Origin: Dehalococcoidia bacterium
GTDB lineage: Bacteria; Chloroflexota; Dehalococcoidia; Plut-88900
DNA length: 64,000 nt
Direction of reading: 5' to 3'
Assembly: GCA_965197645.1 (NCBI GenBank)
Contig: OZ240219.1
Location: 800,001-864,000 of the forward strand
A program made the position numbers and the translations under genes. Of the stretch, positions 5,449 through 31,086 are shown one piece after another. The notes under the pieces are model-generated. The model worked only from the letters and a program-made list of their open reading frames with translations. It made no database searches and was not told the DNA's origin. Within the stretch, counting starts at the first letter, position 1. Each line of letters starts with the position of its first letter.

Positions 5449-6378
5449 GTGGTCATCGATATACATAACCACCTCTGGACCCGGGACGCCCTGCCCGATG
5501 CCTGGTGGAAGATGTACTCCACCTTCTTCTCCACCTACATCCCCGACTCTTCCTTCTCCGGCACCCCCGAGGAGATCGACGCCGGGCTCTTCGAAAAGGC
5601 CTTCGACCCCGACGGCGCCAGTTGTCTGCGAGAGATGGACGAGGCCGCAATCGATGTCACGGTCAACATGCCCGTAGACGTCGATTGCGCTATCGGCGCC
5701 CCCGTCAAGCCCATCGAGCAGCAGAACCAGGAGCTTTCCGACCTGGCTAGAAAGCACCCCGATAGGTATCGCTTCTTCTGCTCCATCGATCCTCGCAAAG
5801 AGAGAGCGCTGGAGTTCGTGGAGAGGGCCGTCGAAGACTGGGGGGCCACCGGTTTCAAGCTCCACCCCAACATGACGGGCCTCTATCCCTGGCACGAGAC
5901 GGCCTACCCCATATACGGAAGGCTCCAGGATCTGGGCCTGCCGGTCCTGGCGCACACCGGCCCCATGTTCGAGCCGCTGGAGCCCAAGTTCAGCCACCCC
6001 CGGGAGTTCGATAAGGTCCTTGCCGACTTCCCCGACCTCACCGTCATAGGCGCCCACATGGGACTGATGTACTGGCGAGACCTGGTCGAGATCGCCCAGC
6101 GGAGACACAACCTCCTCACCGACTTCTCGGCCTTCCAGCACGAGGCCGGCGGCAATCTGGGACGCTTTTGTGCGGTCCTGCGTCGCTGCATCGATGGCTT
6201 CGGTGTCGACCGGGTCCTCTTCGGCTGCGACGGCCCCGTTTGGACCATGTGGTACACCCGCAAGTGGTGGGTTGACCTGATAAAGGGCCTCCCCGACAAC
6301 GCCCCCGAGGGGTTCACCTTCACCCAGGATGAGGTCGACGCCTTGCTCTACGTTAATGCCGGGAGGATTCTGAAATAA
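5449..6378 (+). CDS. Amidohydrolase family 2 protein
   Basis: IDIHNH, GFKLHP, HTG, AHMG, LFGCDGP. Confidence 0.92.
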   Translation: MVIDIHNHLWTRDALPDAWWKMYSTFFSTYIPDSSFSGTPEEIDAGLFEKAFDPDGASCLREMDEAAIDVTVNMPVDVDCAIGAPVKPIEQQNQELSDLARKHPDRYRFFCSIDPRKERALEFVERAVEDWGATGFKLHPNMTGLYPWHETAYPIYGRLQDLGLPVLAHTGPMFEPLEPKFSHPREFDKVLADFPDLTVIGAHMGLMYWRDLVEIAQRRHNLLTDFSAFQHEAGGNLGRFCAVLRRCIDGFGVDRVLFGCDGPVWTMWYTRKWWVDLIKGLPDNAPEGFTFTQDEVDALLYVNAGRILK

Positions 6379-7201: not shown

Positions 7202-7945
7202 ATGCCGAATGACACGATAACGTTCGAATTGGGCGGCCGGGTAGCGATACAAAAGTTCTGTGACGGCGTTGGGCATTTAAAGCGCCTCGTTGACGCATTA
7301 ACTCAAGGCCGGGGCGTAACTTGGGTTGTAGAAGACTTACAGGCCAGTAGCGCCATTACAACTTTGCGCGGCGAGGCGGAAGATGGTGGGCTCGTTGAGC
7401 AAATCGTGAGGGATTACGCTGAAGTGGGAAGCGCCCTTGAACGTCATGAAATCCCACAGGATAGCCCACAGATAACTCAAGCTGCTAGCGCTATCCAATC
7501 GTTTGCCGGATCTATTGATTATGTGCGGTTTGAGACCCCCGAGAACGATTACACGATTCTTGGCAATAGTACCGGGGCAGAGCATCAGCATCGCACTCTG
7601 CAGACTAGCATTGGAGCCGTGGTCGGTCGAGTACAAACGCTAAGCAACCGAGGAGGACTCCGGTTCAATTTGTACGACACCATTCACGATAAAGCGGTTT
7701 CGTGTTACCTCCAACAAGGACAGGAAGAGCTTATACGGGAAGTCTGGGGGAAAAGGGTCACTGTTAGCGGGACTGTATCTAGAGAAAGGCACCTAGGCCG
7801 CCCGGTAGCCATTCGTCACATTTTGAGCATTGACGTCTTAGAAGACATCGCCCAAGGGTCTTATCATCGTGCCAGGGGAGCGGTCTTGTGGCGAGAGGGC
7901 GATAAGATGCCTGAGGAAATTATCCGGCATTTGAGAGATGCCTAA
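7202..7945 (+). CDS. Hypothetical protein (possible OB-fold C-terminus), partner of the PIN gene
   Basis: 247-aa ORF in a lower-GC stretch overlapping the next gene by 8 nt. Confidence 0.75.
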   Translation: MPNDTITFELGGRVAIQKFCDGVGHLKRLVDALTQGRGVTWVVEDLQASSAITTLRGEAEDGGLVEQIVRDYAEVGSALERHEIPQDSPQITQAASAIQSFAGSIDYVRFETPENDYTILGNSTGAEHQHRTLQTSIGAVVGRVQTLSNRGGLRFNLYDTIHDKAVSCYLQQGQEELIREVWGKRVTVSGTVSRERHLGRPVAIRHILSIDVLEDIAQGSYHRARGAVLWREGDKMPEEIIRHLRDA

Positions 7946-8447
7946 CAATCGCACCATCGTTTATTGGGATGCGTGTGTCCTTCTGTCGTATATCAACGGA
8001 ATTGCAGACCGCATGCCCATCTTAGATGCTCTGCTGGCAAGCAGTGCCAGCGATAATGGTGATATCAAACTGCACTCATCAGCCATAGCGAGAGTAGAGG
8101 TAGCTTTCGGTGTTGCTGAGAAAGAAAAGAAGGCTCTGGACCCGAAGGTAGAGCAGCAAATAGATGCCCTTTGGGCAGACCCGGCTGCTGTTGTTACAGT
8201 AGATTATCATGATGGGATAGGAACGATGGCGAGACGGCTAATCAGGGCTGCACTTACTAAGGGGTGGAGTCTGAAGCCAGCCGATGCTATTCACTTAGCC
8301 ACCGCCCAGTGGTTGGCAGAAGTTACTGGCCAAAAGGTTGAGTTTCATACTTACAGTAAAGACCTTCCACGATTCGCGACCCTAACTGATTACCAGATTA
8401 GCCAGCCGATTATCGCCCAACCACAGTTTGATTGGCCACCGGAGTAA
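7938..8447 (+). CDS. PIN domain (VapC-like) protein
   Basis: YWDACV, HSSAIARVEV, LKPADAIHLATA. Confidence 0.85.
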   Translation: MPNNRTIVYWDACVLLSYINGIADRMPILDALLASSASDNGDIKLHSSAIARVEVAFGVAEKEKKALDPKVEQQIDALWADPAAVVTVDYHDGIGTMARRLIRAALTKGWSLKPADAIHLATAQWLAEVTGQKVEFHTYSKDLPRFATLTDYQISQPIIAQPQFDWPPE

Positions 8448-8599: not shown

Positions 8600-9154
8600 A
8601 TGACCACCAAGCAACGAGCCACCTACAAGAGCTTCGCTGAGAGCACTGCCGAGGACTGGGCGGCACAGGCTGCCTTCTCCCAGCAGAACGCCGACCGCTT
8701 GACCGACTCCCTCCTGGACATGCTCGTACGGCTGAAGGACATAGACGAGGGTGGCCCGATCTCCACTTACGATCACTCCCTGCAGTCGGCTACCCGCGCC
8801 TACGAGGACGGCGCCGACGACGAGACCATCTTCATAGCCCTCCTCCACGACGTCAGCCAGGACATATCGGGAGAGAACCATTCCGAGGTAGCCGCCGCCA
8901 TGCTGCGCCCCTACATCTCCGATAAAGCCCACTGGATAGTGCAGCATCACGGCATATTCCAGGGCTATTACTTCTGGCACTACATGGGCAGGGACCGGAA
9001 CGCCCGGGATGCCTACCGAGACCACCCCTACTTCGACGCCTGCCTGGAGTGGTGCGACAAATACGACCAGAACGCCTTCGACCCGGACTACCCCTCAAAG
9101 CCCCTGGAGTTCTTCGAACCCCTGGTCCGTCGCATCATGTCCCGGAAGCGTTAG
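8600..9154 (+). CDS. HD-domain protein (PhnZ/TmpB-like pattern)
   Basis: HSLQSATRA, ALLHD, NH, HH motifs; SD AGGAGG. Confidence 0.85.
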   Translation: MTTKQRATYKSFAESTAEDWAAQAAFSQQNADRLTDSLLDMLVRLKDIDEGGPISTYDHSLQSATRAYEDGADDETIFIALLHDVSQDISGENHSEVAAAMLRPYISDKAHWIVQHHGIFQGYYFWHYMGRDRNARDAYRDHPYFDACLEWCDKYDQNAFDPDYPSKPLEFFEPLVRRIMSRKR

Positions 9155-9257
9155 GCTTTGGATCGGCTCCCCCAAAACAGACTCCATCCCCAGCTTCGGC
9201 GCCGGTCGGTTATTCCGGCAAGCTCCGCCTCGGACGGACGACGAGGAGTCCGCTGAT

Positions 9258-10463
9258 ATGAAGCTGGTCCTTACCAACGCCAACCTGATCGACTGCGTGT
9301 CTCCCCAAGCGGCGCAGGAATCTACCGTCATCATCGAAGAGGGCCGGATCGTGGAGATATCGGGCGGCGGCCCCCCCACGTCCGTCGATGGCGTACGAGT
9401 AATCGACCTGGAAGGCTCCTACCTGTTGCCCGGCCTTTGGGATGTCCAGGTGCAGTGGATCCGAATACACGGTACGACTGCCGCCCAGGAGTCGGTCCGG
9501 TTCGGGCATGCCGCCTCCCAGGCGCTGACCGAGGCCGGCGTGGTCGGTCTGCGTACCGGAGGTGTACCCCATTTCGTCGATGTCGCTTGGAGGGACGCCT
9601 TCAACTCGGGCCAGTTCGTAGGGCCTAGAATCTACGCCTGCGGCAACTACCTTACCACCACCGGGGGCCACGCCCTGGAGTCGGGCTTCGCCGTCGAGTG
9701 CGATGGCCCTTTCGATTGGGTAAACGCCATCCGGCATCAGATCAAGAACGGGGTAGACCAGATAAAGCTGGACCTGACGGGAGGCGTTCTGGGACCACCC
9801 TGGGACCGGCACTGGCACTCCTTCCTACTCGAAGAGGAGATGGAAGCCGCTTTCGCCATCTGCCGCCAGCGAGGCTACAGGGTCATGGCCCACGCCTCCA
9901 ATCCCGATGCCATCAATGCGGCCATCCGGCTGGGAGCCCGGTCGATCGAGCACGGCTACATACTGGACGAGGAGACCGTGAATGCGATGGTCCAGTCGGG
10001 CATCTACTACGTGCCCACCCTCGGTCTGACCCACATGACCGCGGACAAGGTGACGACCCCCTGGGAAACGCAGTGGCTGGACGAACACAGGTGGGCCCCG
10101 GAGATCGCCCAGCGTCTAGAAGCGGCGGCAGACGTGCACCGTCAATGGTTCCAGAGCGCCCTTGGTGCGGGGGTTAAGATGGCCACCGGCTCCAACCTGA
10201 CCCCGTTGAAGGAGGGCGTACTGCTGGAGCTGGGTGTCTGGGTGAAGAACGGCGCAACCGCCTGGCAGGCCCTGTTGGCGGCTACCAGGAACGCAGCGGA
10301 GCTGTGCGGAGCGGGTGAGGACCTGGGCACCGTGGAAGTAGGTAAGCTGGCCGACCTCATCGTCGTAGCCGGTAACCCGCTGGACGACATCAATAATCTG
10401 CGCTCACTTGAGATGGTGATCAAAGAGGGCAGTGTGGTAGCCGACCACCGAGGCCGTTCCTAG
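9258..10463 (+). CDS. Amidohydrolase family 1 protein (metal-dependent hydrolase A-like) with altered metal ligands
   Basis: IDLEGSYLLPGLWD(VQVQ), TTGGH, IK, AHA, IEHG, GTVEVGKLADL; SD GAGGAG before ATG 9258. Confidence 0.88.
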   Translation: MKLVLTNANLIDCVSPQAAQESTVIIEEGRIVEISGGGPPTSVDGVRVIDLEGSYLLPGLWDVQVQWIRIHGTTAAQESVRFGHAASQALTEAGVVGLRTGGVPHFVDVAWRDAFNSGQFVGPRIYACGNYLTTTGGHALESGFAVECDGPFDWVNAIRHQIKNGVDQIKLDLTGGVLGPPWDRHWHSFLLEEEMEAAFAICRQRGYRVMAHASNPDAINAAIRLGARSIEHGYILDEETVNAMVQSGIYYVPTLGLTHMTADKVTTPWETQWLDEHRWAPEIAQRLEAAADVHRQWFQSALGAGVKMATGSNLTPLKEGVLLELGVWVKNGATAWQALLAATRNAAELCGAGEDLGTVEVGKLADLIVVAGNPLDDINNLRSLEMVIKEGSVVADHRGRS

Positions 10464-10543
10464 GACTCCGCTCCGTTTCCTTGTTCCCTCTTTACCTCTT
10501 ATGATAAGATTCCCCTTACCGCGCAAATCGTCAGGGGGTGTGC

Positions 10544-11578
10544 ATGACCAGTTCGTCATCGTTCGAAGTGCCCGATTCCGTCGAAGCCATTGAGTTCTAC
10601 TATCGCGAGGGCTTGACCGACGGACTTCCCGTGGTGCCTCCAACCCCCGAGAGAGTTGCCGAGTTTCTGAGCTACGTCAGAAAGGAACCTGGTGACGTCA
10701 TCGGCTCGGTGCCGGCCCGCCATAGAGTGATCACCGCCGATAAGATCGCCATCAACGCCATCATGGCCGGGTGCCTTCCCGAGTACATGCCTGTCCTGGT
10801 CACCGCCATCGAGGCCATGTCCGACGAGAGCTTCAATCTACACGGCACCTCCGCCAGTACTGCGGGCACGGGGCACATGGTCATAGTCCATGGGCCTATC
10901 TCCCGGGAACTGGACATCAATCACGCCAACAATCTGTTCGGGCCTACAAAGCGCTCCAACGCTACCATCGGGCGGGCGCTGCGCCTCATAATCATGAACG
11001 TAATCGGTTCCATCCCGGGGGTGCTGGACAAATCGACCTTCGGGCACCCGGGCAAGTACTCCTACTGCATAGCCGAGGACGAAGAACTGAGCCCCTGGGA
11101 GCCGTTGCACGTCGAGCGGGGGCTGCCCCTGGAGGCCAGCGCCGTCACTGTGTGGGCCGCCAATGCACCCCACCAGTTCGATGACCACGGGCACAACCAT
11201 GTGGAAGACATCTTGACCACTGTGGCCACCTCCATGCTGGGCCAGGCGTATCCCGGCGGCCCCGAGCACATGGTGATCCTCAGCCCCGAGCTCGTCGGTA
11301 ACATCCGTGAGTCGGGCTGGACCAAGCGGCAGGTCAAGGAGTTCCTCTACGAGAAGTCCAAGCGGCCCGCCTCCTTCTGGGCCGATCTTCGAGGCGACGG
11401 CAGCATCTTTAGCAGCGAGGGACCGGTGTCGGAGGGCGAAGAGATACCCGCCGTCGCAAGTCCGGACGGCATCATGGTACTGGTGGCCGGCGGCAGCGCC
11501 GGGGCCTTCTTCTGCAGCATCATCCCCTGGGGCGCCGGGTTCGGCACCAGGTCAGTAACCAGACAGATAACCGTCTAA
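10544..11578 (+). CDS. Uncharacterised partner protein of UGSC selenoprotein (copy 1)
   Basis: TDGLPVVPPT, AINAIMAGCLPEY, NATIGRA, STFGHPGKY, SPWEPLHVERG, VAGG; paralog at 24661. Confidence 0.85.
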   Translation: MTSSSSFEVPDSVEAIEFYYREGLTDGLPVVPPTPERVAEFLSYVRKEPGDVIGSVPARHRVITADKIAINAIMAGCLPEYMPVLVTAIEAMSDESFNLHGTSASTAGTGHMVIVHGPISRELDINHANNLFGPTKRSNATIGRALRLIIMNVIGSIPGVLDKSTFGHPGKYSYCIAEDEELSPWEPLHVERGLPLEASAVTVWAANAPHQFDDHGHNHVEDILTTVATSMLGQAYPGGPEHMVILSPELVGNIRESGWTKRQVKEFLYEKSKRPASFWADLRGDGSIFSSEGPVSEGEEIPAVASPDGIMVLVAGGSAGAFFCSIIPWGAGFGTRSVTRQITV

Positions 11579-11615
11579 CTTAATCAACCAGGGATCCAAG
11601 GAAAGGAGCAAACAG

Positions 11616-12164
11616 ATGGTAGTAGAGACAAGAGCCCCGTCCATCACCGTGATGGACCCCAGGGCCGAGCCCGTTCCTACCGAGGCCTCGATGGCCGCCA
11701 GGCCTGAGACCCTCCACGGCAAGGTGTTGGGCCTCCTGGACAACAGCAAGAACAACGCCAACGAGCTGGCAAAGGCGATCGGCGACCTGCTCCAAGAGCG
11801 GTTTGAGATCAAGGAGATCAAGGTTGCCACCAAGCCCGACGCCTCCAGGCCGGCCCCCGCCGAAATCATGGAGGACCTGGCCAACGGTGTCGACTTTGCC
11901 GTCGTCGCAGTCGGGGACTGAGGGTCCTGCAGTCAGTGCAGTTTGCACGACGGAATCGAGCTGGAAAAGCGGGGCGTGCCCGCAGCGGTGATCATCACCA
12001 GCGAGTTTATCGTTCCCGCCAAGGCCACGGCCAAGTCCCAAGGCATACCCGACTACCCCTTCGCCATTGTGCCCCATCCCATAGGCAGCCTCACCGATGA
12101 GGGCCTCAAAGAACGGGCCAGCGAGGCGCTTCCCCAGGTCCTGAGCATTCTGGACCAGAAGTAG
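11616..12164 (+). CDS. UGSC-motif selenoprotein (182 aa, Sec102)
   Basis: LLDNSKxNA...AVGD-TGA(11919-11921)-GSCSQCSLHD..EKRGVP..VPHPIG; the two ORF-track halves are in frame. Confidence 0.9.
11932..11951 (+). promoter_or_regulatory. SECIS-like hairpin (UGSC copy 1)
   Basis: GTC-A-GTGC-AGTTT-GCAC-GAC starting 11 nt after the UGA. Confidence 0.65.
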
Positions 12165-12415: not shown

Positions 12416-12694
12416 GTGGATCGATTTAGAAATGGCGACACCGAACGCCTCTTTGCTGGACAGTCGGTCCGGCGACTTCCAGTCGACATCCAGCGCCAGG
12501 CACGAGTAAGACTGCAGCGAGTAGTGGCGGCCGTAGCGCTCACAGACCTTCGGCTGCCGCCGTCGCACCGACTCGAAGCTCTGCGGGGAGACCGGGAGGG
12601 CCAGCACAGCATCCGAGTCAATGACCAGTGGCGGGTGTGCTTTGTCTGGACAGGCCGGGGCGTTATGGAGGTCGAAGTCGTCGACTACCACTGA
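12416..12694 (+). CDS. higB: HigB-type (RelE/ParE superfamily) toxin
   Basis: DLRLPPSHRLEALRGDREGQHSIRVNDQWRVCF..VDYH. Confidence 0.92.
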   Translation: MDRFRNGDTERLFAGQSVRRLPVDIQRQARVRLQRVVAAVALTDLRLPPSHRLEALRGDREGQHSIRVNDQWRVCFVWTGRGVMEVEVVDYH

Positions 12695-12705
12695 GGAGGA
12701 AGCTG

Positions 12706-12990
12706 ATGACAGCCCCTGAACCCATACACCCGGGAGAGCACCTGGCGGAGATCATGGAGGAGTTGGGCATCACCCAATACAGATTGGCCAAGACGATAGG
12801 GGTGCCCCAGATACGCATCCACGACATCGTTCACCGCCGCAGATCCATCACTGCGGACACGGCGCTGCGTATCGGGCGAGCCCTGAGTATGACGCCCGAC
12901 TTCTGGTTGAACCTCCAGCGGATGTATGATCTGGATGTGGCTCGGGCCAAGACCGACGTGAGCGCCATCGAGCCGCTTGTCAAAACGTAA
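12706..12990 (+). CDS. higA: HigA antitoxin (Xre HTH)
   Basis: PIHPGEHL..ITQYRLA..ITADTALR..FWLNLQ..YDL; SD GAGGAGG. Confidence 0.93.
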   Translation: MTAPEPIHPGEHLAEIMEELGITQYRLAKTIGVPQIRIHDIVHRRRSITADTALRIGRALSMTPDFWLNLQRMYDLDVARAKTDVSAIEPLVKT

Positions 12991-13013
12991 GGCTGAGTGT
13001 AGCGGCCGGAGGG

Positions 13014-13049
13014 TTGAAGCGTTCCTGCCTCTACAAGGTCTGGGAGGCC
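13014..13049. repeat. 36-bp direct repeat, copy 1
   Basis: TTGAAGcGTTCCTGCCTCTACAAGGTCTggGAGGCC; 33/36 identical to 16657-16692. Confidence 0.85.
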
Positions 13050-13052
13050 TTC

Positions 13053-13931
13053 CTATTGACTATCGGCATTTTTTGCCTGTGAGGAAGGGTCCTTGGCTTC
13101 TGACGTCATCTCGTACTTGCGGGGTTTCGTTCTCAGCTGTTTGACTCCCCTCTCTTTGAGGATGGGCCAGAGCTTGTTGGCGAACTCCATCCCGAATTTT
13201 GGCCCCTGCATGCTCGCGATTCGATGATCAGGCCACCGCGATTTGACGATCCGGTGGCAGTCCACGCTTCTGAAAGGGCCGACTGGAATCTGTTGGACGA
13301 TAAGATCCGCCATTTCATCCCGCAGCTTGGAATCGTCCTCGTGCTCATTACTGGCGACAGAAGGACGAGTGGAAGCAGCTGGCATTTGCACTTCATGGAT
13401 GTGGTCGTTGGGGAAGAAGTTCGCGATGGTTGATGCCTTTGTCGTGGTACGATCGGTCATCACCCACAGGAAAGGGACTCTCGTTCCTCCCAGGTCCTTC
13501 AGCTTGGCGTAGAGTGGCATGAAATCGCTGTCGTCGCTCATCACGGCGACAAACTGGGTGGTCCCCGTCACGAAGTCCGCCACCGCGTCGATGGCGATAG
13601 CTATATCCGCCGAATTCTTGGATAGCGTTCTGGTGAAGTGCTGTATTCCTTTGACCGTTACGGTCAGGTGCGGAAAGTGGCTGCTGGCCCACACGTCCCA
13701 AAGCGAAACCCGGTCAGCGTGAACGTACAGGTTCAGCAGGGACAAGGGTGGAGTGTCCTCCGGCCACTGCCTTACAACGGTCTCAACTAGGAGTTGGGCG
13801 CTGCTTTGGAGATTCTCGGTGTCGACGTACAACGCCGTCCCGTGGGACTGGGATTTCATCTTGACATCGAGGGATGGAACTCCCGGCCGTCTGGCCTTTA
13901 TGCGTTTACGAAACTGCTTAAACATCGTCAT
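13053..13931 (-). CDS. NYN (LabA/DUF88, PIN-like) domain protein
   Basis: LYVDTENL, KNSADIAIAIDA, MSDDSDF; extra C-terminal domain. Confidence 0.85.
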   Translation of the reverse strand: MTMFKQFRKRIKARRPGVPSLDVKMKSQSHGTALYVDTENLQSSAQLLVETVVRQWPEDTPPLSLLNLYVHADRVSLWDVWASSHFPHLTVTVKGIQHFTRTLSKNSADIAIAIDAVADFVTGTTQFVAVMSDDSDFMPLYAKLKDLGGTRVPFLWVMTDRTTTKASTIANFFPNDHIHEVQMPAASTRPSVASNEHEDDSKLRDEMADLIVQQIPVGPFRSVDCHRIVKSRWPDHRIASMQGPKFGMEFANKLWPILKERGVKQLRTKPRKYEMTSEAKDPSSQAKNADSQ

Positions 13932-14529
13932 CCTCCTGTGGAGCTAAAGAGCGGGGCCACGGCTTCCAGTCCAACTCCAGCCGGCGACGACCGCCTGACA
14001 ACTCGCGGGATCGCTGACCGTTAACACGAGACTCGCCTCTTGAGAATCTCCCGTCAGGCCACCGGAACTCGTGTTGTATCCAACCGGACCCCATAAGCGA
14101 TGCAACAGGGCGGCGAATCGCCTCCCGAAACCTCCCGGCGGTTACGTTGTCGACCATCTCGGTGAGCCGTTCGATCTCGCCTTCGGCTGACTCATCGCAT
14201 GCGTCACAGCCACAGTCCGGAAACGGCTCGATGTGCCACCGCCCAAATCGGACATGAACGCCGGGAAAGGTCGAGAACGCCACTGCGATAGGTGCGGTGT
14301 CGGGATTCCTCGGGTTGAGTCCGACACTGGGACTGGCAAGCTCCTGACCCCTCTCGAGCTTCTCGTCAAGACCATACCCATCCTTACGCTCCACTTCGAA
14401 GTCGCTTTCCAGCCGGCTGATAATCTCCAGCATGGCCGTGTGCAACGGCCGGAAACGCTCGGCGTTGGTCACGCGGCTGTATGCCTCTGGAGGCGGTCCC
14501 TCAGGCCCCCATCTACCACGTTCAGACAT
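13918..14529 (-). CDS. Hypothetical protein (DUF6226-like)
   Basis: PPPEAYSRVTNAERFRPLH, FPDCGCDACDE. Confidence 0.7.
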   Translation of the reverse strand: MSERGRWGPEGPPPEAYSRVTNAERFRPLHTAMLEIISRLESDFEVERKDGYGLDEKLERGQELASPSVGLNPRNPDTAPIAVAFSTFPGVHVRFGRWHIEPFPDCGCDACDESAEGEIERLTEMVDNVTAGRFREAIRRPVASLMGSGWIQHEFRWPDGRFSRGESRVNGQRSRELSGGRRRLELDWKPWPRSLAPQEDDDV

Positions 14530-24660: not shown

Positions 24661-25746
24661 TTGACATCGTCACCGGACTCCCGTTTTGAGCTTCCCGATA
24701 CAGTCGAGGCCATCGAGTTCTACTACGAACAGGGCCTCACCGATGGCCTTCCAGTAATACCTCCCACCGAGGAACGGGTGCTTCAGTTCCTGGAAGCCGC
24801 AGGGGTGGAGCCGACCGAGGTGATAGGCACCCGGCCCAGCCGCAACTGGATCGTAACTGCCGATAAGGTTGCCATTAACGCCATCATGGCCGGCTGCCTC
24901 CCGGAGTATGCCCCTGTTGTCGTAGCCTCCATCAGAGCTCTACTGCGCCCCGAGTTCAACGCCTCAGCCATTTCCGAGACTGCCGGCACCTCCGCGCCAA
25001 TGATCATGGTCAACGGGCCCATTCGCCACGAGCTCGATATCAACTCCGGTTGGAACCTGTTCGGGCCTGGCTGGAGAGCCAACGCCACTATCGGCCGCGC
25101 CCTCCGGTTGGTCCTCATCAACGTCTGCAACGAGGTGCCGGGGGTGAGGGACAAGTCCACCTTCGGCCAAGCCGGACGCTACACCTCCTGCATCGCTGAA
25201 AACGAGGAGGCCAGTCCCTGGCAGCCCTATCACGTCGAGAAAGGCTTCCCGATAGAGTCCAACACTACAGGCCTCTTCGCCGTGTTTCCTCCCATGGAGA
25301 TCTACAATCAGTCGGACAACCAGCCGGAGCAGATCCTGGAGAGCCTGTGCCATATCATAGCCGCCGACGACAATTGCCAAGGCGAACTGGTTCTTATCCT
25401 CAGCCCTGAGCATGCCCAGACCATAGCCTCTGCAGGGTGGAGCAAAGACCAGGTAAAGGAATATATGGTTGGGAGGATCACCGACTTGTACCCCAAACTG
25501 TCGATCCAGGCCGAAAAGGTCGGCCCGGCCGCCGCGCGGTTCGGCAGTACCCCAACAGAAGCAAGAGACACAGGAGGCAGACGTAGCTCGGGTGATAGCG
25601 GCCCGGTTGTCCCAATCCGTGCCGAGGGTATCATCCTTCTGGTGGCTGGCGGCGAAGGTGGTGGCCACTCCTCAATTCTTCCTACATGGGGCAGATCAGC
25701 GATAGCCCACTCCGTCATCGAGCCCATTACGATTGCACCAAGGTGA
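24661..25746 (+). CDS. Uncharacterised partner protein of UGSC selenoprotein (copy 2)
   Basis: TDGLPVIPPT, AINAIMAGCLPEY, NATIGRA, STFGQAGRY, SPWQPYHVEKG; TTG start after GAGGT. Confidence 0.85.
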   Translation: MTSSPDSRFELPDTVEAIEFYYEQGLTDGLPVIPPTEERVLQFLEAAGVEPTEVIGTRPSRNWIVTADKVAINAIMAGCLPEYAPVVVASIRALLRPEFNASAISETAGTSAPMIMVNGPIRHELDINSGWNLFGPGWRANATIGRALRLVLINVCNEVPGVRDKSTFGQAGRYTSCIAENEEASPWQPYHVEKGFPIESNTTGLFAVFPPMEIYNQSDNQPEQILESLCHIIAADDNCQGELVLILSPEHAQTIASAGWSKDQVKEYMVGRITDLYPKLSIQAEKVGPAAARFGSTPTEARDTGGRRSSGDSGPVVPIRAEGIILLVAGGEGGGHSSILPTWGRSAIAHSVIEPITIAPR

Positions 25747-25852: not shown

Positions 25853-26983
25853 ATGAAGAACGGATTCAAGATCATAGACGGCGACGGCCACATGCAAGAG
25901 CCCATGGATATATGGGAGAACTTCACGGAGCCCGCCTTCAAAGATAGGATCCCCAAGGTTATCGGGCACGTGGGCAAGACGGAGTTTCAATACGGTCCCT
26001 GCGAGATCTTTCCAGAGGGCCAAGCGACCGCCTTCACCCAGGAGGTCTACGAGGACGTGGAAGAGCGCTACGGCGAAGCGTACCGTAGCTGGTGGAGCCT
26101 GCCCAGCCGCCTGGACCACATGGACGACGAAGGTGTGGACGTCCAGGTCTGCTTCCCCACCAACGGAGCCCTGGCCACGGGCAACTCCGTCAAGGACATC
26201 GATCTGCAGTCGGCCCTGGTGCGAGCCTACAACAACTGGGCCATCGATTTCTGCCGGGACTCCTCGGGCAGGGTACTCTTCGTGGCGCTGGCAAGTCCGG
26301 GTGGCGGTGAAGAGGCCCTGCGAGAGGTGAAGCGCGTCGCCTCCAATCCGGCGGTGGCGGCGGTGACCCTGGCGGGGTTCATAGACCTGTCGGAAGGCCA
26401 GAAGTGGTGTGATGAGAAGTTCGAGGGCCTATGGCAGCTGCTGGAGAGCGAGGGCCTGCCCGCCGCCTTCCATGGCGGAGGCTCCCAGCGTTCCCTCTTT
26501 GGCCAGTACCAGGGAGAGATGGCTACGGTAGCCCACGCCATCTCCTTCCCCGTGGACCTGATGTTGTCCCTGGCCGACCTGATCTTCGGCGACGTGCTGG
26601 AGCGCTATCCCAACCTGCGGTGCGGGTTCTACGAGGCCAACGCCGGGTGGGTGCCCTACTGGCTGGCCCGCCTGGACGACCACGGCACCGGCAGACAGGC
26701 CCGCTTTATGCACGGAGCCTCGGTATCGATGAAGCCCAGCGACTACTTCTACCGTCAGTGCTCGGTATCATGCGACGCCGATGAGGGCACGCTGCCCCTG
26801 GTGGTAGACTATCTGGAGGGTAGTAACATAATCTTCAACACGGACTACCCCCACCCGGACGCTCCCTTCCCGGGTGCGGTGGACGAGCTGCTGGAGCGGC
26901 CTATCCCCGAGGATGCAAAGCGAAAGATCCTGTGGGACAACTCGGTGGACCTGTACAGGGACCGGATACAGGTCAGTGTTTGA
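25853..26983 (+). CDS. Amidohydrolase family 2 protein
   Basis: IIDGDGH, FH, EAN.GW, NTDYPHPD. Confidence 0.92.
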   Translation: MKNGFKIIDGDGHMQEPMDIWENFTEPAFKDRIPKVIGHVGKTEFQYGPCEIFPEGQATAFTQEVYEDVEERYGEAYRSWWSLPSRLDHMDDEGVDVQVCFPTNGALATGNSVKDIDLQSALVRAYNNWAIDFCRDSSGRVLFVALASPGGGEEALREVKRVASNPAVAAVTLAGFIDLSEGQKWCDEKFEGLWQLLESEGLPAAFHGGGSQRSLFGQYQGEMATVAHAISFPVDLMLSLADLIFGDVLERYPNLRCGFYEANAGWVPYWLARLDDHGTGRQARFMHGASVSMKPSDYFYRQCSVSCDADEGTLPLVVDYLEGSNIIFNTDYPHPDAPFPGAVDELLERPIPEDAKRKILWDNSVDLYRDRIQVSV

Positions 26984-27151: not shown

Positions 27152-27703
27152 ATGACTACAGGCTCTCTCAACAAGCTGATAGCCCTGGACCCCAGGGGTG
27201 ATACCGGCCCAGCCGAGTCGATCTCCATGGCCCCCAGGCCCGACTCGCTGGACGGAAAGCGCATCGGCCTGCTCCACGATCAGCGGCTCAACGGCGACAA
27301 TCTTCTGTGGATGGTCACCGACCTGATCAAAGAGCAGTACGAGACCGGTGAGGTCAACTTCTGGGCCAGGCCCAACATATCGGACATCTCCCCACCGGAC
27401 CTCATGGCGGAGATGGCCGCCAAGGCTGACGTGAGCTTGATAGCGATCGGGGACTGAGGGTCCTGCAGCACGTGCTGTATGCACGACGCACTCACCCTCG
27501 AAGACATGGGCGTCCCCACTGCGGTAATCATAAGCGACCAGTTCTTACCGGGCGTTCAGGAGATATCCAAGTCTCGCGGCGCCCCTGATTACCCCTACGT
27601 GGTGGTCAAGCACCCCATCGGCAGCCTTGACGAGGATACCTTGAAGGAACGGGCCAGGGACGCCCTGCCCCAGGTGTTGAACATCCTTCTCAACGGCAAG
27701 TAG
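27152..27703 (+). CDS. UGSC-motif selenoprotein (183 aa, Sec102)
   Basis: AIGD-TGA(27455-27457)-GSCSTCCMHD..EDMGVP..VKHPIG; halves in frame; paralog of 11616. Confidence 0.9.
27471..27485 (+). promoter_or_regulatory. SECIS-like hairpin (UGSC copy 2)
   Basis: CGTGC-TGTAT-GCACG starting 14 nt after the UGA. Confidence 0.6.
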
Positions 27704-29916: not shown

Positions 29917-31086
29917 ATGTCCCTCGAGAACGCGATCGTCGATGTGGACAGCCACGTCTGGGAGCGGCTCGACCTGATAGAGGAGCATCTCGAGCCTGAG
30001 TACAGGGGCCTCGCTCCCAGAATAGAGACCGACGAGCGGGGCCTGGAGTACATGCTGGTCGAGGGCCGTAAGCCGCTGAACATCCTCCTCAGGGAGGGCC
30101 GGTTCGGTCGCATGTCGGCGGGAGAGTCTATCGAGGCCAAGCGGGACAAGTATCTGAAACCGGGCGCCGTAACCTACGAGGAAGGCCTTGAGCTCGCCCC
30201 CGCCTCCCACGACCCCCACGAGCGGATCAAGCTCATGGACGATGAGAAGGTCGACGTTTCCTTCCTCTACCCGACCCTCTGGCTCCACCTGGAATCCGAG
30301 TGCCGCAAGCCTGAGATGGCCGCCGTCTACGTTCGGGCCTACAACAACTATCTGATGGACTTCTGCGGCCACTACCCGGAGCGGCTAACCCCGGTGGCCC
30401 ACGTCTCGGTGATGGACGTGGAGGAGGGCATCAGCGAGTTGCATCGCGTAGCTGATATGGGAGTCAAGGCCGCCATGCTTTCCGGGTACCCCCTGAGCGG
30501 ACGCTCCTACGGTGATCCCTACTTCGACCCCTTCTGGGAAGCCGCCCAGGAGATTGGCCTCCCTATCACCTTTCACGTAGTGGGCAATCTCCACCCCTTC
30601 AGCAACCCCTATTTCGAAAACACGTCGCTGAACAGGTTGGCCGAATCGGACCTGTGGTTCTACATACTGCTGGAGGCGCCCGGCGTCCACTTGGGGCTGG
30701 CGAGCCTTCTGGCCGGTGGCGTCTTCGATCGCTTCCCCGGACTGAAGATCGTCCTGCTGGAGACCGGCTGTAGCTGGATGCTCTACTGGTTCGACCGGGC
30801 CGATCACATAATGGACGCCTATCCCGGCACCACCATGATGAAATCCTATCCCAGCGAGTATATGAAGACCAACATCTGGACATCCATGGACCCGGACGAG
30901 GACCTGGCGCCGGTGGTCGTGGACCGGTTTGGAGCGGAGAGGTTTATGTGGGGCGCCGACTACCCTCATTCCGAGGGCCAGACCGGAGCGGTGGAAAGCC
31001 TCAAGCAAAGCCTGAGCAATCTTCCCGAAGATGCTCGCAGGAAGATAATCGGTGAAAACGCTATCAGGCTGTACGGCCTGAGCTGA
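29917..31086 (+). CDS. Amidohydrolase family 2 protein within the arg cluster
   Basis: VDVDSH, FH, LETGCSW, GADYPHSE. Confidence 0.9.
   Translation: MSLENAIVDVDSHVWERLDLIEEHLEPEYRGLAPRIETDERGLEYMLVEGRKPLNILLREGRFGRMSAGESIEAKRDKYLKPGAVTYEEGLELAPASHDPHERIKLMDDEKVDVSFLYPTLWLHLESECRKPEMAAVYVRAYNNYLMDFCGHYPERLTPVAHVSVMDVEEGISELHRVADMGVKAAMLSGYPLSGRSYGDPYFDPFWEAAQEIGLPITFHVVGNLHPFSNPYFENTSLNRLAESDLWFYILLEAPGVHLGLASLLAGGVFDRFPGLKIVLLETGCSWMLYWFDRADHIMDAYPGTTMMKSYPSEYMKTNIWTSMDPDEDLAPVVVDRFGAERFMWGADYPHSEGQTGAVESLKQSLSNLPEDARRKIIGENAIRLYGLS

What the first reader, a model, noticed from the sequence alone, without database searches (positions are those of the whole stretch)
10544..12164. Uncharacterised two-component selenoenzyme: UGSC selenoprotein plus ~345-aa partner, resembling glycine/proline reductase B chemistry
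Seen: two in-frame ORFs joined by UGA give GD-U-GSCSQC..HD..E..GVP..PHPIG, with a SECIS-like hairpin, directly after a conserved partner gene (TDGLPVVPPT/MAGC/NATIGRA). Knowledge: UGSC-motif selenoproteins are a named family without established function; GrdB has the pattern T-U-GTCTRC..KEIERAGIP..IPHP.G. Inference: partner plus Sec subunit form a Grd/Prd-like reductase or lyase that uses a selenolate on a catabolic substrate, possibly one released by the upstream HD protein or amidohydrolase.
Basis: partly seen in the sequence, partly recalled or inferred. Interest (0 to 1): 0.85.

Follow-up and report, generated by a model that had tools for sequence, protein, structure and literature searches.

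The report
UGSC selenoprotein and its partner enzyme
A real selenocysteine-containing gene of the long-known but function-less "UGSC" family sits next to an unannotated 344-residue protein to which it is linked or fused in many other bacteria, so the two most likely work as one enzyme whose chemistry is still unknown.

Summary
Window 11616-12164 (+) is one gene with an in-frame TGA (11919-11921) that gives a 182-aa UGSC-family selenoprotein (NF041046, 151 bits against a cut-off of 125). The hairpin after the TGA is conserved and covaries in 24 Sec-type UGSC genes. The genome has selA, selB, selD and tRNA-Sec.

The upstream 344-aa gene (10544-11578) belongs to a very large family with no Pfam or NCBIfam model. 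No solved structure resembles its model (best Z 4.9).

The link between the two genes is strong:
- In a 201-genome phylum sample, all 21 genomes with UGSC have the partner.
- In that sample, 34 of 38 UGSC genes lie within 2 kb of a partner gene on the same strand.
- Natural fusions occur in both orders, one of them in this genome.
- Other partner proteins carry a Redoxin or a ferredoxin:thioredoxin-reductase-beta domain instead of UGSC, and one carries both UGSC and the latter.

UGSC is a remote relative of the Sec loop of GrdB/PrdB only. The partner is unrelated to GrdB, and no Pfam family matched it, so no Grd/Prd proenzyme model did.

Best reading: the partner is a Cys77-dependent catalytic subunit that is re-reduced by a dedicated selenol/thiol module. 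The substrate is unknown. The proposed link to the HD protein or amidohydrolase is not supported.

The parts
10544..11578 (+). Partner gene, 344 aa (an alternative GTG start lies at 10538). It belongs to an unannotated family. Near-invariant residues are D26, G76, C77 (the MAGC motif), R137, N139, R144, C175, E178 and W185.
   Evidence: no Pfam or NCBIfam hit. (family size). (conservation). (AF2 pLDDT 95.7). (no PDB neighbour with Z >= 5).
11603..11608 (+). Shine-Dalgarno AAGGAG, 7 nt before the UGSC start codon.
   Evidence: Read directly.
11616..12164 (+). UGSC-family selenoprotein gene, 182 aa with U102 and C105 in GD-U-GSC. The predicted fold is flavodoxin-like, with five beta-alpha units.
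11919..11921 (+). In-frame TGA read as selenocysteine (U102).
   Evidence: Cys in all 26 Cys-form homologues. (1 TGA in 36 of 38 UGSC matches in the phylum sample).
11932..11951 (+). SECIS hairpin starting 13 nt after the first base of the TGA codon, with apical loop GUU at 11941-11943.
   Evidence: fold. (conserved and covarying in 24 Sec-type UGSC genes).
24661..25746 (+). Second partner paralogue in the window (49% identical to the first).
25853..26983 (+). Amidohydro_2 gene lying between the second partner and the second UGSC. Its membership of the unit is doubtful.
   Evidence: (86 such matches in the genome).
27152..27703 (+). Second UGSC selenoprotein gene, with TGA at 27455-27457 and a SECIS stem at about 27471-27485.

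Best explanation
The two genes encode a two-component enzyme.

The 344-aa partner is the catalytic subunit. It belongs to a large, unannotated family whose predicted structure resembles no solved one. Its active site is built around the nearly invariant Cys77 (MAGC), with R137, N139, R144, E178 and usually Cys175.

UGSC is its dedicated two-electron redox module:
- It is a small flavodoxin-like protein whose Sec102/Cys105 pair (U-G-S-C) sits at the end of a beta-strand and the start of a helix.
- It is remotely homologous to the Sec loop of GrdB/PrdB.
- In each turnover the selenolate would attack the oxidised or substrate-loaded Cys77, and Cys105 would resolve the adduct into an intramolecular Se-S bond.
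- That Se-S bond would then be re-reduced by a general thiol system or, in some lineages, by a fused ferredoxin:thioredoxin-reductase-type domain.

The UGA is decoded as Sec through a SelB-type hairpin just downstream.

Shown here: the selenoprotein gene and its SECIS, the genomic and fusion linkage, the interchangeable redox modules, the conserved residues and the fold predictions. Inferred: physical binding, the direction of electron flow, the role of Cys77, and a small carboxylate-type substrate suggested by the two invariant arginines and the catabolic surroundings.
For: (1) A real selenoprotein. Family scores are above cut-off. Cys aligns with Sec in 26 of 26 Cys forms. The SECIS covaries. 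The Sec machinery is present.

(2) Linkage within this genome. All 4 UGSC genes have a partner paralogue within 1.6 kb, and one is a single-frame UGSC-partner fusion.

(3) Linkage in the phylum sample of 201 genomes.
- UGSC is in 21 genomes and the partner in 24. All 21 UGSC genomes have the partner, and none has UGSC alone.
- Of 38 UGSC matches, 28 lie within 200 nt and 6 more within 2 kb of a partner, all on the same strand. Without the unpublished genome G038 this is 32 of 36.
- Both gene orders occur: UGSC first in 25 cases, partner first in 10.

(4) Linkage in other phyla. All 22 UGSC loci outside the Poribacteria type have the partner adjacent. They are 16 Dehalococcoidia, 1 Bacillota, 2 Acidimicrobiales/-aceae, Nonomuraea sediminis, 1 Streptosporangiaceae and 1 Alphaproteobacteria. 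The one Streptosporangiaceae hit (L115) is only a 73-aa partial match at the locus end (E 2e-12). All 5 Cys-form loci are among them. All 5 Poribacteria genomes checked have exactly one partner homologue elsewhere on the chromosome.

(5) Fusions among the 150 best partner representatives. Thirty-two are fused to UGSC, many of them gene calls cut at the Sec codon. Six are fused to Redoxin/AhpC-TSA (the one read has a CPTC motif) and 1 to FeThRed_B with its CPC..CPC..CHC motif. P0206 is UGSC-partner-FeThRed_B.

(6) Partner conservation over 276 sequences: C77 in 270, G76 in 275, R144 in 276, E178 in 275, N139 in 273, C175 in 264.

(7) Remote homology of UGSC to the Sec loop of GrdB.
Against: - In 58 of 80 loci from genome contigs (the Poribacteria type) no partner lies within 6 kb of UGSC, so adjacency is not universal.
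- In this genome 3 of 7 partner paralogues have no UGSC nearby. Ninety of the 150 representatives are stand-alone or fragments.
- Two UGSC-partner fusions (P0157, P0223) have lost the Cys/Sec motif while keeping C77. The UGSC domain can therefore persist without redox chemistry.
- C175 is Val in 10 of 276 sequences.
- No coordinates were available, so I could not test whether Sec102 can reach Cys77 or whether C77 and C175 are close.
- No conserved neighbouring genes point to a substrate.
Confidence: 0.6

Rival explanations
1. Grd/Prd-type reductase. The partner would be a proenzyme that cleaves itself between G76 and C77, turning Cys77 into an N-terminal pyruvoyl group that binds an amine substrate. 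The Sec of UGSC would then attack the bound substrate as PrdB does, and Cys105 would resolve the selenoether.
For: - UGSC is the size of PrdB's core and shares the Sec loop with GrdB/PrdB.
- G76-C77 is nearly invariant, and the 5 exceptions at position 77 are Ala, Gly or Ile, never Ser.
- Recalled knowledge: Grd/Prd pyruvoyl groups derive from Cys, and some pyruvoyl enzymes cleave at Gly|Ser.
- This genome already uses GrdB-family selenoproteins: 3 full-length and 2 short ones. One short one lies between a UGSC gene and a partner gene.
Against: - The partner shows no sequence likeness to any Pfam family, including the Grd/Prd proenzyme family (0 of 76 members share a hit), nor to GrdB.
- Position 77 is predicted in a helix-loop-helix of a compact, confident single-chain model.
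- Replacement of UGSC by Redoxin or FTR-beta modules fits disulfide exchange better than attack on a carbon centre.
- The PrdB-like neighbour is not found in any other fetched locus.
Confidence: 0.12
2. Reverse roles. UGSC, or the Redoxin domain in other lineages, would be the terminal enzyme, for example a selenol peroxidase or reductase. The partner would be its recycling or electron-relay protein through a C77/C175 disulfide.
For: - The Redoxin/AhpC-TSA domains fused to the partner belong to a family that includes peroxidases.
- Two conserved cysteines in the partner could form a relay disulfide.
- FTR-beta fused to the partner could feed it electrons.
Against: - A 344-aa protein with invariant R144, E178, N139, D26 and W185 looks like a small-molecule pocket rather than a relay.
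- C175 is dispensable in 10 of 276 sequences, including the Cys-form fusion P0177.
- Tandem partner-partner proteins occur without any redox module.
Confidence: 0.12
3. Non-redox pairing. UGSC would be mainly a structural or regulatory subunit of the partner, and the Sec/Cys pair would sense redox state rather than take part in catalysis.
For: The fusions P0157 and P0223 keep the UGSC fold signature but lack the Cys/Sec motif.
Against: - GD[C/U]GSC is invariant in 28 of 28 stand-alone UGSC proteins aligned.
- Costly Sec is kept in 36 of 38 phylum matches and in 75 of 80 loci.
- Redox modules of two other kinds replace UGSC.
Confidence: 0.08
4. There is no functional pair. UGSC would be an independent thiol oxidoreductase that merely neighbours an unrelated gene.
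For: UGSC and the partner are unlinked in Poribacteria.
Against: - Fusions occur in both orders.
- Co-occurrence is 21 of 21 genomes, and adjacency is 34 of 38 matches.
- All 5 Poribacteria genomes checked still hold one partner copy.
Confidence: 0.03

Closest known systems
UGSC family (seleno)protein (NCBIfam NF041046, Pfam PF24696); the 'UGSC-containing protein' of Zhang and Gladyshev
   Same: Full membership. The scores are above cut-off, the U-G-S-C motif is present, and the gene has an in-frame TGA with a SECIS. [quoted passage not shown] I read only passages of PMC1976440, PMC2398784, PMC9312934 and PMC13188914.
   Different: Nothing differs in the protein itself. Added here are the near-obligate partner family, the alternative redox-module fusions, the remote link to GrdB, and a predicted flavodoxin-like fold rather than the 'likely Trx-like fold' stated in PMC2398784. 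I could not check whether 'Unknown_1' is this partner, because Figure S1A is a closed supplement.
Selenoprotein B of the glycine/sarcosine/betaine/D-proline reductases (GrdB, GrdF, GrdH, PrdB; TIGR01917, TIGR01918, TIGR04483)
   Same: The Sec-bearing strand-loop-helix and the following ELE[KR]xG[IV]P strand align with Sec on Sec. In both systems the selenoprotein works with a second, larger subunit.
   Different: Scores are 15-22 bits against cut-offs of 65-602 bits. Only about 50-80 residues align. UGSC has 182 aa against about 430 (GrdB) or about 240 (PrdB). The motif is U-G-S-C, whereas this genome's own GrdB has U-G-T-G-T-R-S-G. The partner is unrelated to GrdB and matches no Pfam family. 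True GrdB-family genes exist elsewhere in the same genome.
Thiol-dependent reductases fused to their thioredoxin-type reductant (for example Trx-MsrA/B fusions, recalled) and ferredoxin:thioredoxin reductase beta (PF02943)
   Same: A catalytic domain with an essential Cys is serviced by an exchangeable dithiol module. Redoxin and FeThRed_B domains are found fused to the partner in the position of UGSC or beside it.
   Different: The catalytic domain belongs to no known reductase family, and the usual module is a Sec-containing flavodoxin-like protein, not a thioredoxin fold.
Class I (Fe-S) fumarate hydratase and L-serine dehydratase; the MmgE/PrpD family (structural neighbours only)
   Same: These give the longest, though weak, structural alignments to the partner model. 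Examples are 6mso_A (Z 4.3, 195 residues, rmsd 5.9), 7xky_A (Z 4.2, 182 residues), 4rqo_B (Z 3.8) and 2hp0_A (Z 3.6), and Foldseek E 2e-3 with TM 0.27-0.30. All of them act on small carboxylates.
   Different: The scores are below what chance arrangements give; the tool's own note puts a typical best Z at 7-8. There is no sequence likeness. Only two conserved cysteines are present, not a three-Cys cluster site.

Membership tests
UGSC family (NF041046 / PF24696) | Profile score above the curated cut-off | tested here: met
   NF041046 scores 151.1 bits against 125. PF24696 scores 195 bits against 25.
UGSC family (NF041046 / PF24696) | U/C-G-S-C motif with Sec or Cys at the first position | tested here: met
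   GD-U-GSC at residues 100-105. The column is Cys in all 26 Cys-form rows, and the motif is invariant in 28 of 28 rows.
Bacterial selenoprotein gene (SelB-dependent recoding) | In-frame UGA followed closely by a conserved stem-loop | tested here: met
   The hairpin occupies columns 15-33 counted from the U of UGA, with G23 and U24 in the loop. It is 80.2% paired against at most 50.5% when slid, and 6 of 8 pairs change on both sides. That G23/U24 are the SelB contacts in E. coli fdhF is recalled, not tested.
Bacterial selenoprotein gene (SelB-dependent recoding) | selA, selB, selD and tRNA-Sec present in the genome | tested here: met
   selB 346.8 bits, selA 547.7 bits, selD 379.7 bits, all above cut-off. 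tRNA-SeC(tca) was found by ARAGORN.
Bacterial selenoprotein gene (SelB-dependent recoding) | Selenium actually incorporated, so that the full-length 182-aa product is made | not testable with these tools
   This needs 75Se labelling or mass spectrometry. The sequencing-run tool could not be reached.
GrdB/PrdB selenoprotein B family (TIGR01917/TIGR01918/TIGR04483) | Profile score above the family cut-off over the whole protein | tested here: not met
   The scores are 21.8, 18.0 and 14.9 bits against cut-offs of 602.2, 65.45 and 300. Only residues of about 79-163 match.
GrdB/PrdB selenoprotein B family (TIGR01917/TIGR01918/TIGR04483) | Sec at the homologous position of the Sec loop | tested here: met
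   hhalign of 26 UGSC sequences against this genome's GrdB puts the Sec/Cys column on the GrdB Sec (E 6.5e-5, probability 64%, 50 columns). Thirteen of 28 UGSC sequences hit TIGR01917.
GrdB/PrdB selenoprotein B family (TIGR01917/TIGR01918/TIGR04483) | A companion pyruvoyl proenzyme (GrdE/PrdA type) encoded alongside | tested here: not met
   The companion gene matches no Pfam or NCBIfam model. Self-cleavage of the partner itself was not testable.
Thioredoxin-fold oxidoreductases (proposed for UGSC in PMC2398784) | Thioredoxin fold | tested here: inconclusive
   The AF2 model (pLDDT 92.8) has five beta-alpha units. The Foldseek hits shown (about 40 rows) are three-layer alpha/beta folds, among them flavodoxin-like proteins (AzoR, WrbA, flavodoxin), RpiB and GTPase-like proteins, with TM 0.27-0.49. 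No thioredoxin-fold entry is among the rows shown. This rests on a prediction only.
Class I fumarate hydratase / Fe-S hydro-lyase fold (for the partner) | Clear structural match and a three-Cys cluster site | tested here: inconclusive
   Z is 4.2-4.3 and Foldseek gives E 2e-3 with TM about 0.3. Only C77 and C175 are conserved.

The most novel reading that the evidence does not exclude
The partner is a self-processing enzyme that cleaves at G76|C77 to form a pyruvoyl group, and UGSC is its minimal PrdB-type selenosubunit. Together they would be a compact, unrecognised lineage of Grd/Prd-type reductases. It would act on an unknown amine or carboxylate and would be spread through Chloroflexota, Poribacteria, Actinomycetota and other bacteria. 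In some lineages it would be wired directly to ferredoxin through a fused FTR-beta domain.
Probability: 0.12. Interest if true: 0.9.

Novelty: new variant of a known kind. Interest (0 to 1): 0.68.

Why it matters
UGSC has been listed as one of the most abundant selenoprotein families of ocean metagenomes, "of unknown function", from 2007 up to a 2026 review. I read only passages of PMC1976440, PMC2398784 and PMC13188914.

This work ties UGSC to one specific partner family:
- The family is very large: 5,074 clusters at 50% identity reach E <= 0.001, and 1,218 reach E <= 1e-30.
- It has no family model and no structural neighbour in the PDB.
- Thioredoxin-type and FTR-type modules can stand in for UGSC.

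The open question therefore becomes a testable one: what does the Cys77 enzyme reduce?

The work also points to workable material. One option is the Cys-form pair in a cultured actinomycete, Nonomuraea sediminis (L101). Natural single-chain fusions are another.

If the partner proves to be a new reductase class, it would add a selenium-dependent step to the carbon or sulfur metabolism of Chloroflexota and of sponge symbionts.

Tried and rejected
Complex prediction. A run on the two halves of the natural Cys-form fusion P0177 (residues 222-561 against 1-180) gave "no answer", with ipSAE 0.16 and 0.14 against a mark of 0.34. This counts neither for nor against binding.

Partner identity.
- Pfam and NCBIfam found nothing for P0002. 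A Pfam scan of 76 family members found no shared family.
- PDB sequence searches with P0002 and with a 7-paralogue profile found nothing usable.
- Foldseek against the PDB gave no hit at E <= 1e-3.
- VIA-align against 48,161 chains gave no Z >= 5.
- The Atlas returned only the family's own unnamed clusters. One was auto-named "Thioredoxin family protein". The named-only search gave nothing.
- The idea that the partner is the N-terminal part of GrdB was rejected (hhalign probability 0.2%).

UGSC and solved structures. A PDB profile search found nothing.

Substrate from gene context.
- I clustered 270 neighbouring ORFs from 27 loci.
- Beyond the partner itself, only generic catabolic families recur: luciferase-like monooxygenase, Amidohydro_2, SDR, ABC transporter, CoA-transferase III, Iso_dh, MaoC, IclR, AMP-binding and ECH.
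- With 86 Amidohydro_2 matches in this genome, about 7 in about 95 kb of partner surroundings compares with about 2.5 expected (my own tally, not a tool output).
- I therefore dropped the link to the HD protein and the amidohydrolase.
- The PrdB-like selenoprotein gene between UGSC2 and partner 5 occurs in no other fetched locus, so it is not part of the unit.

Other.
- The promoter and terminator scan gave nothing useful.
- Rfam has no SECIS match in the region.
- The single-sequence fold of the hairpin is not significant; only the comparative test is.
- Searches for "UGSC" (9 and 17 papers) found no paper on function or partner within that library.
- Figure S1A of PMC2398784 (the UGSC/Unknown_1 fusion) is a supplement and was closed. 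It may already show this partner.
- The look-up of sequencing runs could not be reached, so there is no expression evidence.
Full report
**What is in the sequence**

The partner ORF runs from ATG 10544 (an alternative GTG lies at 10538) to the stop at 11578.

Thirty-seven bases downstream, after an AAGGAG Shine-Dalgarno at 11603-11608, an ORF starts at 11616. It meets TGA at 11919-11921 and stays open in the same frame to TAG at 12164. Read with TGA as Sec, it gives a 182-aa protein with GD-U-GSCSQC, ELEKRGVP and PHPIG.

That product scores 195 bits on Pfam PF24696 (UGSC, cut-off 25) and 151.1 bits on NCBIfam NF041046 (cut-off 125).

**Is it really a selenoprotein?**

- In an alignment with 26 full-length homologues, every one has Cys at the position of the TGA. 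GD[C/U]GSC, E117, G120, P122, F131, H154 and P155 are invariant in 28 of 28 rows.
- The nearest database relatives are 101-aa proteins, the length of the stretch before the TGA.
- The genome (one 3.21-Mb contig) has selB, selA and selD above their cut-offs. Its selD itself contains a TGA. It also has a tRNA-SeC.
- The hairpin after the TGA (11932-11951, loop GUU) is not significant when folded alone (z 0.05).
- I collected 24 Sec-type UGSC genes: 4 from this genome and 20 from relatives. I aligned the 48 nt that start at the TGA, without gaps.
- The 8-pair helix at columns 15-22/26-33 is 80.2% paired, against 25.5-50.5% when the 3' arm is slid. Six of 8 pairs change on both sides. The covariation score is 0.354 against at most 0.133, and 0 of 500 shuffles reach it.
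- G23 and U24 sit in the loop. From memory, these are the SelB contact positions of the E. coli fdhF SECIS.
- Caveat: these are coding columns from related genes, so the shuffle control overstates. The slid controls are the fairer comparison.

**The partner family**

- P0002 matches no Pfam or NCBIfam model even at E <= 1. A scan of 76 family members found no shared Pfam family.
- The family is nevertheless very large. A word-index search scored 7,422 proteins at E <= 0.001 among 8,000 candidates, and every name in the listed rows was "hypothetical protein".
- An exhaustive search of 1.84 billion representatives found 5,074 clusters at E <= 0.001 and 1,218 at E <= 1e-30.
- Over 276 aligned sequences the near-invariant residues are D26 (265), G76 (275), C77 (270; the others are 3 Ala, 1 Gly, 1 Ile and 1 gap, no Ser), R137 (262), N139 (273), R144 (276), C175 (264; 10 Val), E178 (275) and W185 (274).
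- AlphaFold2 with a 76-row alignment gives a confident single-chain model (pLDDT 95.7, pTM 0.93).
- Foldseek against the PDB gives no hit at E <= 1e-3.
- VIA-align against 48,161 representative chains gives no Z >= 5. The top rows (Z 4.9) cover only a small alpha/beta subdomain (residues about 206-328).
- The longest alignments are to class I fumarate hydratase (Z 4.3, 195 residues, rmsd 5.9; Z 4.2, 182 residues), L-serine dehydratase beta (Z 3.8) and MmgE/PrpD-family enzymes (Z 3.4-3.6).
- The tool's own note says a typical best Z for hard models is 7-8. This model is therefore unusually far from solved structures, and I take these rows only as a faint hint towards enzymes of small carboxylates.

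**The linkage**

This genome has 4 UGSC genes, each with one TGA, and 7 partner paralogues.

- Every UGSC gene has a partner within 1.6 kb: 811616/810544 are adjacent, 827152/824661 and 2775276/2776941 have one gene between them, and the fourth pair is fused.
- The fourth pair, on the minus strand near 2.2516-2.2532 Mb, is one continuous frame: UGSC with its TGA, followed by the partner.
- The second and third pairs are close copies of each other (their UGSC proteins are nearly identical).

In a 201-genome sample of the phylum:

- UGSC is in 21 genomes and the partner (E <= 1e-10) in 24.
- All 21 UGSC genomes have the partner. Three have the partner only (one of these is a weak partial match), and none has UGSC only.
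- Of 38 UGSC matches, 36 contain one TGA.
- Twenty-eight lie within 200 nt of a partner match and 6 more within 2 kb, all on the same strand.
- One lies 5.2 kb away. Three have no partner on their contig, and one of those three is a contig-edge fragment.
- Without the unpublished genome G038 the figure is 32 of 36.
- Kin are not independent, but both gene orders occur (UGSC first 25 times, partner first 10 times). That argues against a single inherited arrangement.

Outside the phylum, a scan of GTDB species genomes returned 80 loci. Seventy-five are Sec forms and 5 are Cys forms.

- All 22 loci not of the Poribacteria type have the partner adjacent. They are 16 Dehalococcoidia, 1 Bacillota, 2 Acidimicrobiales/-aceae, Nonomuraea sediminis, 1 Streptosporangiaceae (only a 73-aa partial match at the locus end, E 2e-12) and 1 Alphaproteobacteria.
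- These 22 include all 5 Cys forms.
- The 58 Poribacteria-type loci have no partner within 6 kb, and their neighbours look unrelated.
- All 5 Poribacteria genomes I checked nevertheless have exactly one partner homologue elsewhere on the chromosome (45-48% identity).
- So co-occurrence holds there, but adjacency does not.

**Fusions**

Among the 150 best partner representatives:

- 32 carry a UGSC domain. Some are full N-terminal UGSC. Many start just after the Sec position or stop just before it, which is the mark of gene calls broken at a TGA.
- 6 carry an N-terminal Redoxin/AhpC-TSA domain.
- 1 carries a ferredoxin:thioredoxin reductase beta domain.
- 7 are tandem partner-partner proteins.
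- 14 have other extensions.
- 90 are stand-alone or fragments.

Pfam confirms these on the examples scanned. The sequences show GDCGSC in P0177, CPTC in P0162, and the CPC..CPC..CHC motif in P0153.

P0206 (MBI4334987.1, a Chloroflexi MAG, "hypothetical protein") is UGSC-partner-FeThRed_B in one chain.

Two fusions (P0157, P0223) keep the UGSC fold signature but have lost the Cys/Sec motif.

PMC2398784 mentions a UGSC fusion to a conserved domain called "Unknown_1" (passage). This is probably the same partner. The figure is a supplement I could not open, so that stays unverified.

**What UGSC is like**

- The AF2 model (pLDDT 92.8) has five beta-alpha units.
- The Foldseek hits shown are three-layer alpha/beta folds, among them flavodoxin-like proteins (AzoR, WrbA, flavodoxin), RpiB and GTPase-like proteins, at TM 0.27-0.49. 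This does not match the thioredoxin fold suggested in 2008.
- At sequence level, the only families other than UGSC_fam hit by more than one member are selenoprotein B families. Of 28 members at E <= 0.01, 13 hit GrdB, 7 GrdF, 5 GrdH, 5 TIGR01918 and 4 PrdB.
- hhalign of 26 Cys-form UGSC sequences against this genome's own GrdB aligns 50 columns with Sec on the Sec/Cys column (E 6.5e-5, probability 64%).
UGSC fails the Grd/Prd family cut-offs by a wide margin.
- The genome has separate, true GrdB-family genes: three full-length and two short.

**How it most likely works**

A catalytic protein whose one nearly invariant Cys sits among invariant Arg, Asn and Glu residues is encoded beside, or fused to, one of three kinds of dithiol or selenol-thiol module. 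That is the pattern of a thiol-dependent reductase with its own reductant.

I therefore read UGSC as the dedicated redox module of a Cys77 enzyme. The U102/C105 pair would cycle through a Se-S bond. Electrons would come from the general thiol pool or, where FTR-beta is fused, from ferredoxin.

- The pairing itself I put at about 0.9.
- This mechanism I put at about 0.6.
- A small carboxylate-type substrate I put at about 0.3. It rests only on the two invariant arginines, the faint structural hints and the catabolic surroundings.

The strict Grd/Prd reading, with a pyruvoyl group made by cleavage at G76|C77, remains possible (0.12) and is easy to test by mass spectrometry.

**What argues against this reading**

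- The genes are unlinked in Poribacteria.
- Three of the 7 paralogues here, and most family representatives, have no UGSC nearby.
- Some fusions have degenerate, non-redox UGSC domains.
- No coordinates were available, so the distance between Sec102 and Cys77 is untested.
- No conserved neighbour points to a substrate.
- The HD and amidohydrolase genes upstream are not conserved companions. With 86 Amidohydro_2 matches in this genome, one nearby means little.

**Novelty**

The UGSC gene itself is a new member of a known family. The unit of UGSC plus partner, with interchangeable Redoxin or FTR-beta modules, is not described in any paper found by two searches of the held library. The one exception is the brief mention of an "Unknown_1" fusion. 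I rate it a new variant of a known kind, namely a thiol/selenol-serviced reductase built on an uncharacterised catalytic family.

Noticed in passing
Own genome outside the window: C1:2856099-2857394(+), 256551-257843(+), 401069-402352(-); short forms at 2793597-2794061(-) and 2775920-2776525(+): There are three full-length GrdB-family selenoprotein genes (448-508 bits, one TGA each, motif T-U-GTGTRSG) and two short PrdB-like genes with a TGA. One short gene lies between the second UGSC gene and a partner paralogue. It is not seen in any other fetched locus.
   Followed up: partly
Own genome C1:941844-942767(+): selD itself carries an in-frame TGA, so it is a selenoprotein form of SelD.
   Followed up: no
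Whole genome; in the window for example 5449-6378, 25853-26983 and 29917-31086: There are 86 matches to Amidohydro_2 (PF04909) in a 3.2-Mb genome, a very large paralogue expansion. Luciferase-like monooxygenases recur near them.
   Followed up: partly
Window 27152-27703 and own genome C1:2775065-2775731: The two UGSC genes are nearly identical in protein sequence but sit in differently arranged loci (partner-amidohydrolase-UGSC against UGSC-PrdB-like-partner). This suggests a recent duplication followed by rearrangement.
   Followed up: partly
Window 7202-8447 and 12628-14529: A PIN-domain gene (7938-8447) follows a 247-aa ORF with no family. Downstream of the pair lie an HTH_3 gene (12628-12990), a NYN-domain gene (13053-13931, -) and a DUF6226 gene (13918-14529, -). 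These look like mobile or defence-type surroundings rather than metabolic ones.
   Followed up: no
Window 8600-9154 and 9009-10463: The HD-domain ORF and the Amidohydro_1 ORF overlap by 146 nt as listed. The true amidohydrolase start is probably further downstream.
   Followed up: no
Proteins P0125, P0129, P0138, P0147, P0173, P0186, P0251: These are tandem partner-partner proteins of about 616-741 aa without any redox domain. They suggest that the partner works as a dimer.
   Followed up: no
L029:9669-12155(-) (G101): Here the partner domain is the C-terminal part of an 828-aa ORF. Its N-terminal stretch of about 480 aa has no Pfam match.
   Followed up: no
L062:8008-9099(-): An IS605 OrfB/TnpB-type gene lies 1.5 kb from the unlinked Poribacteria UGSC gene.
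   Followed up: no
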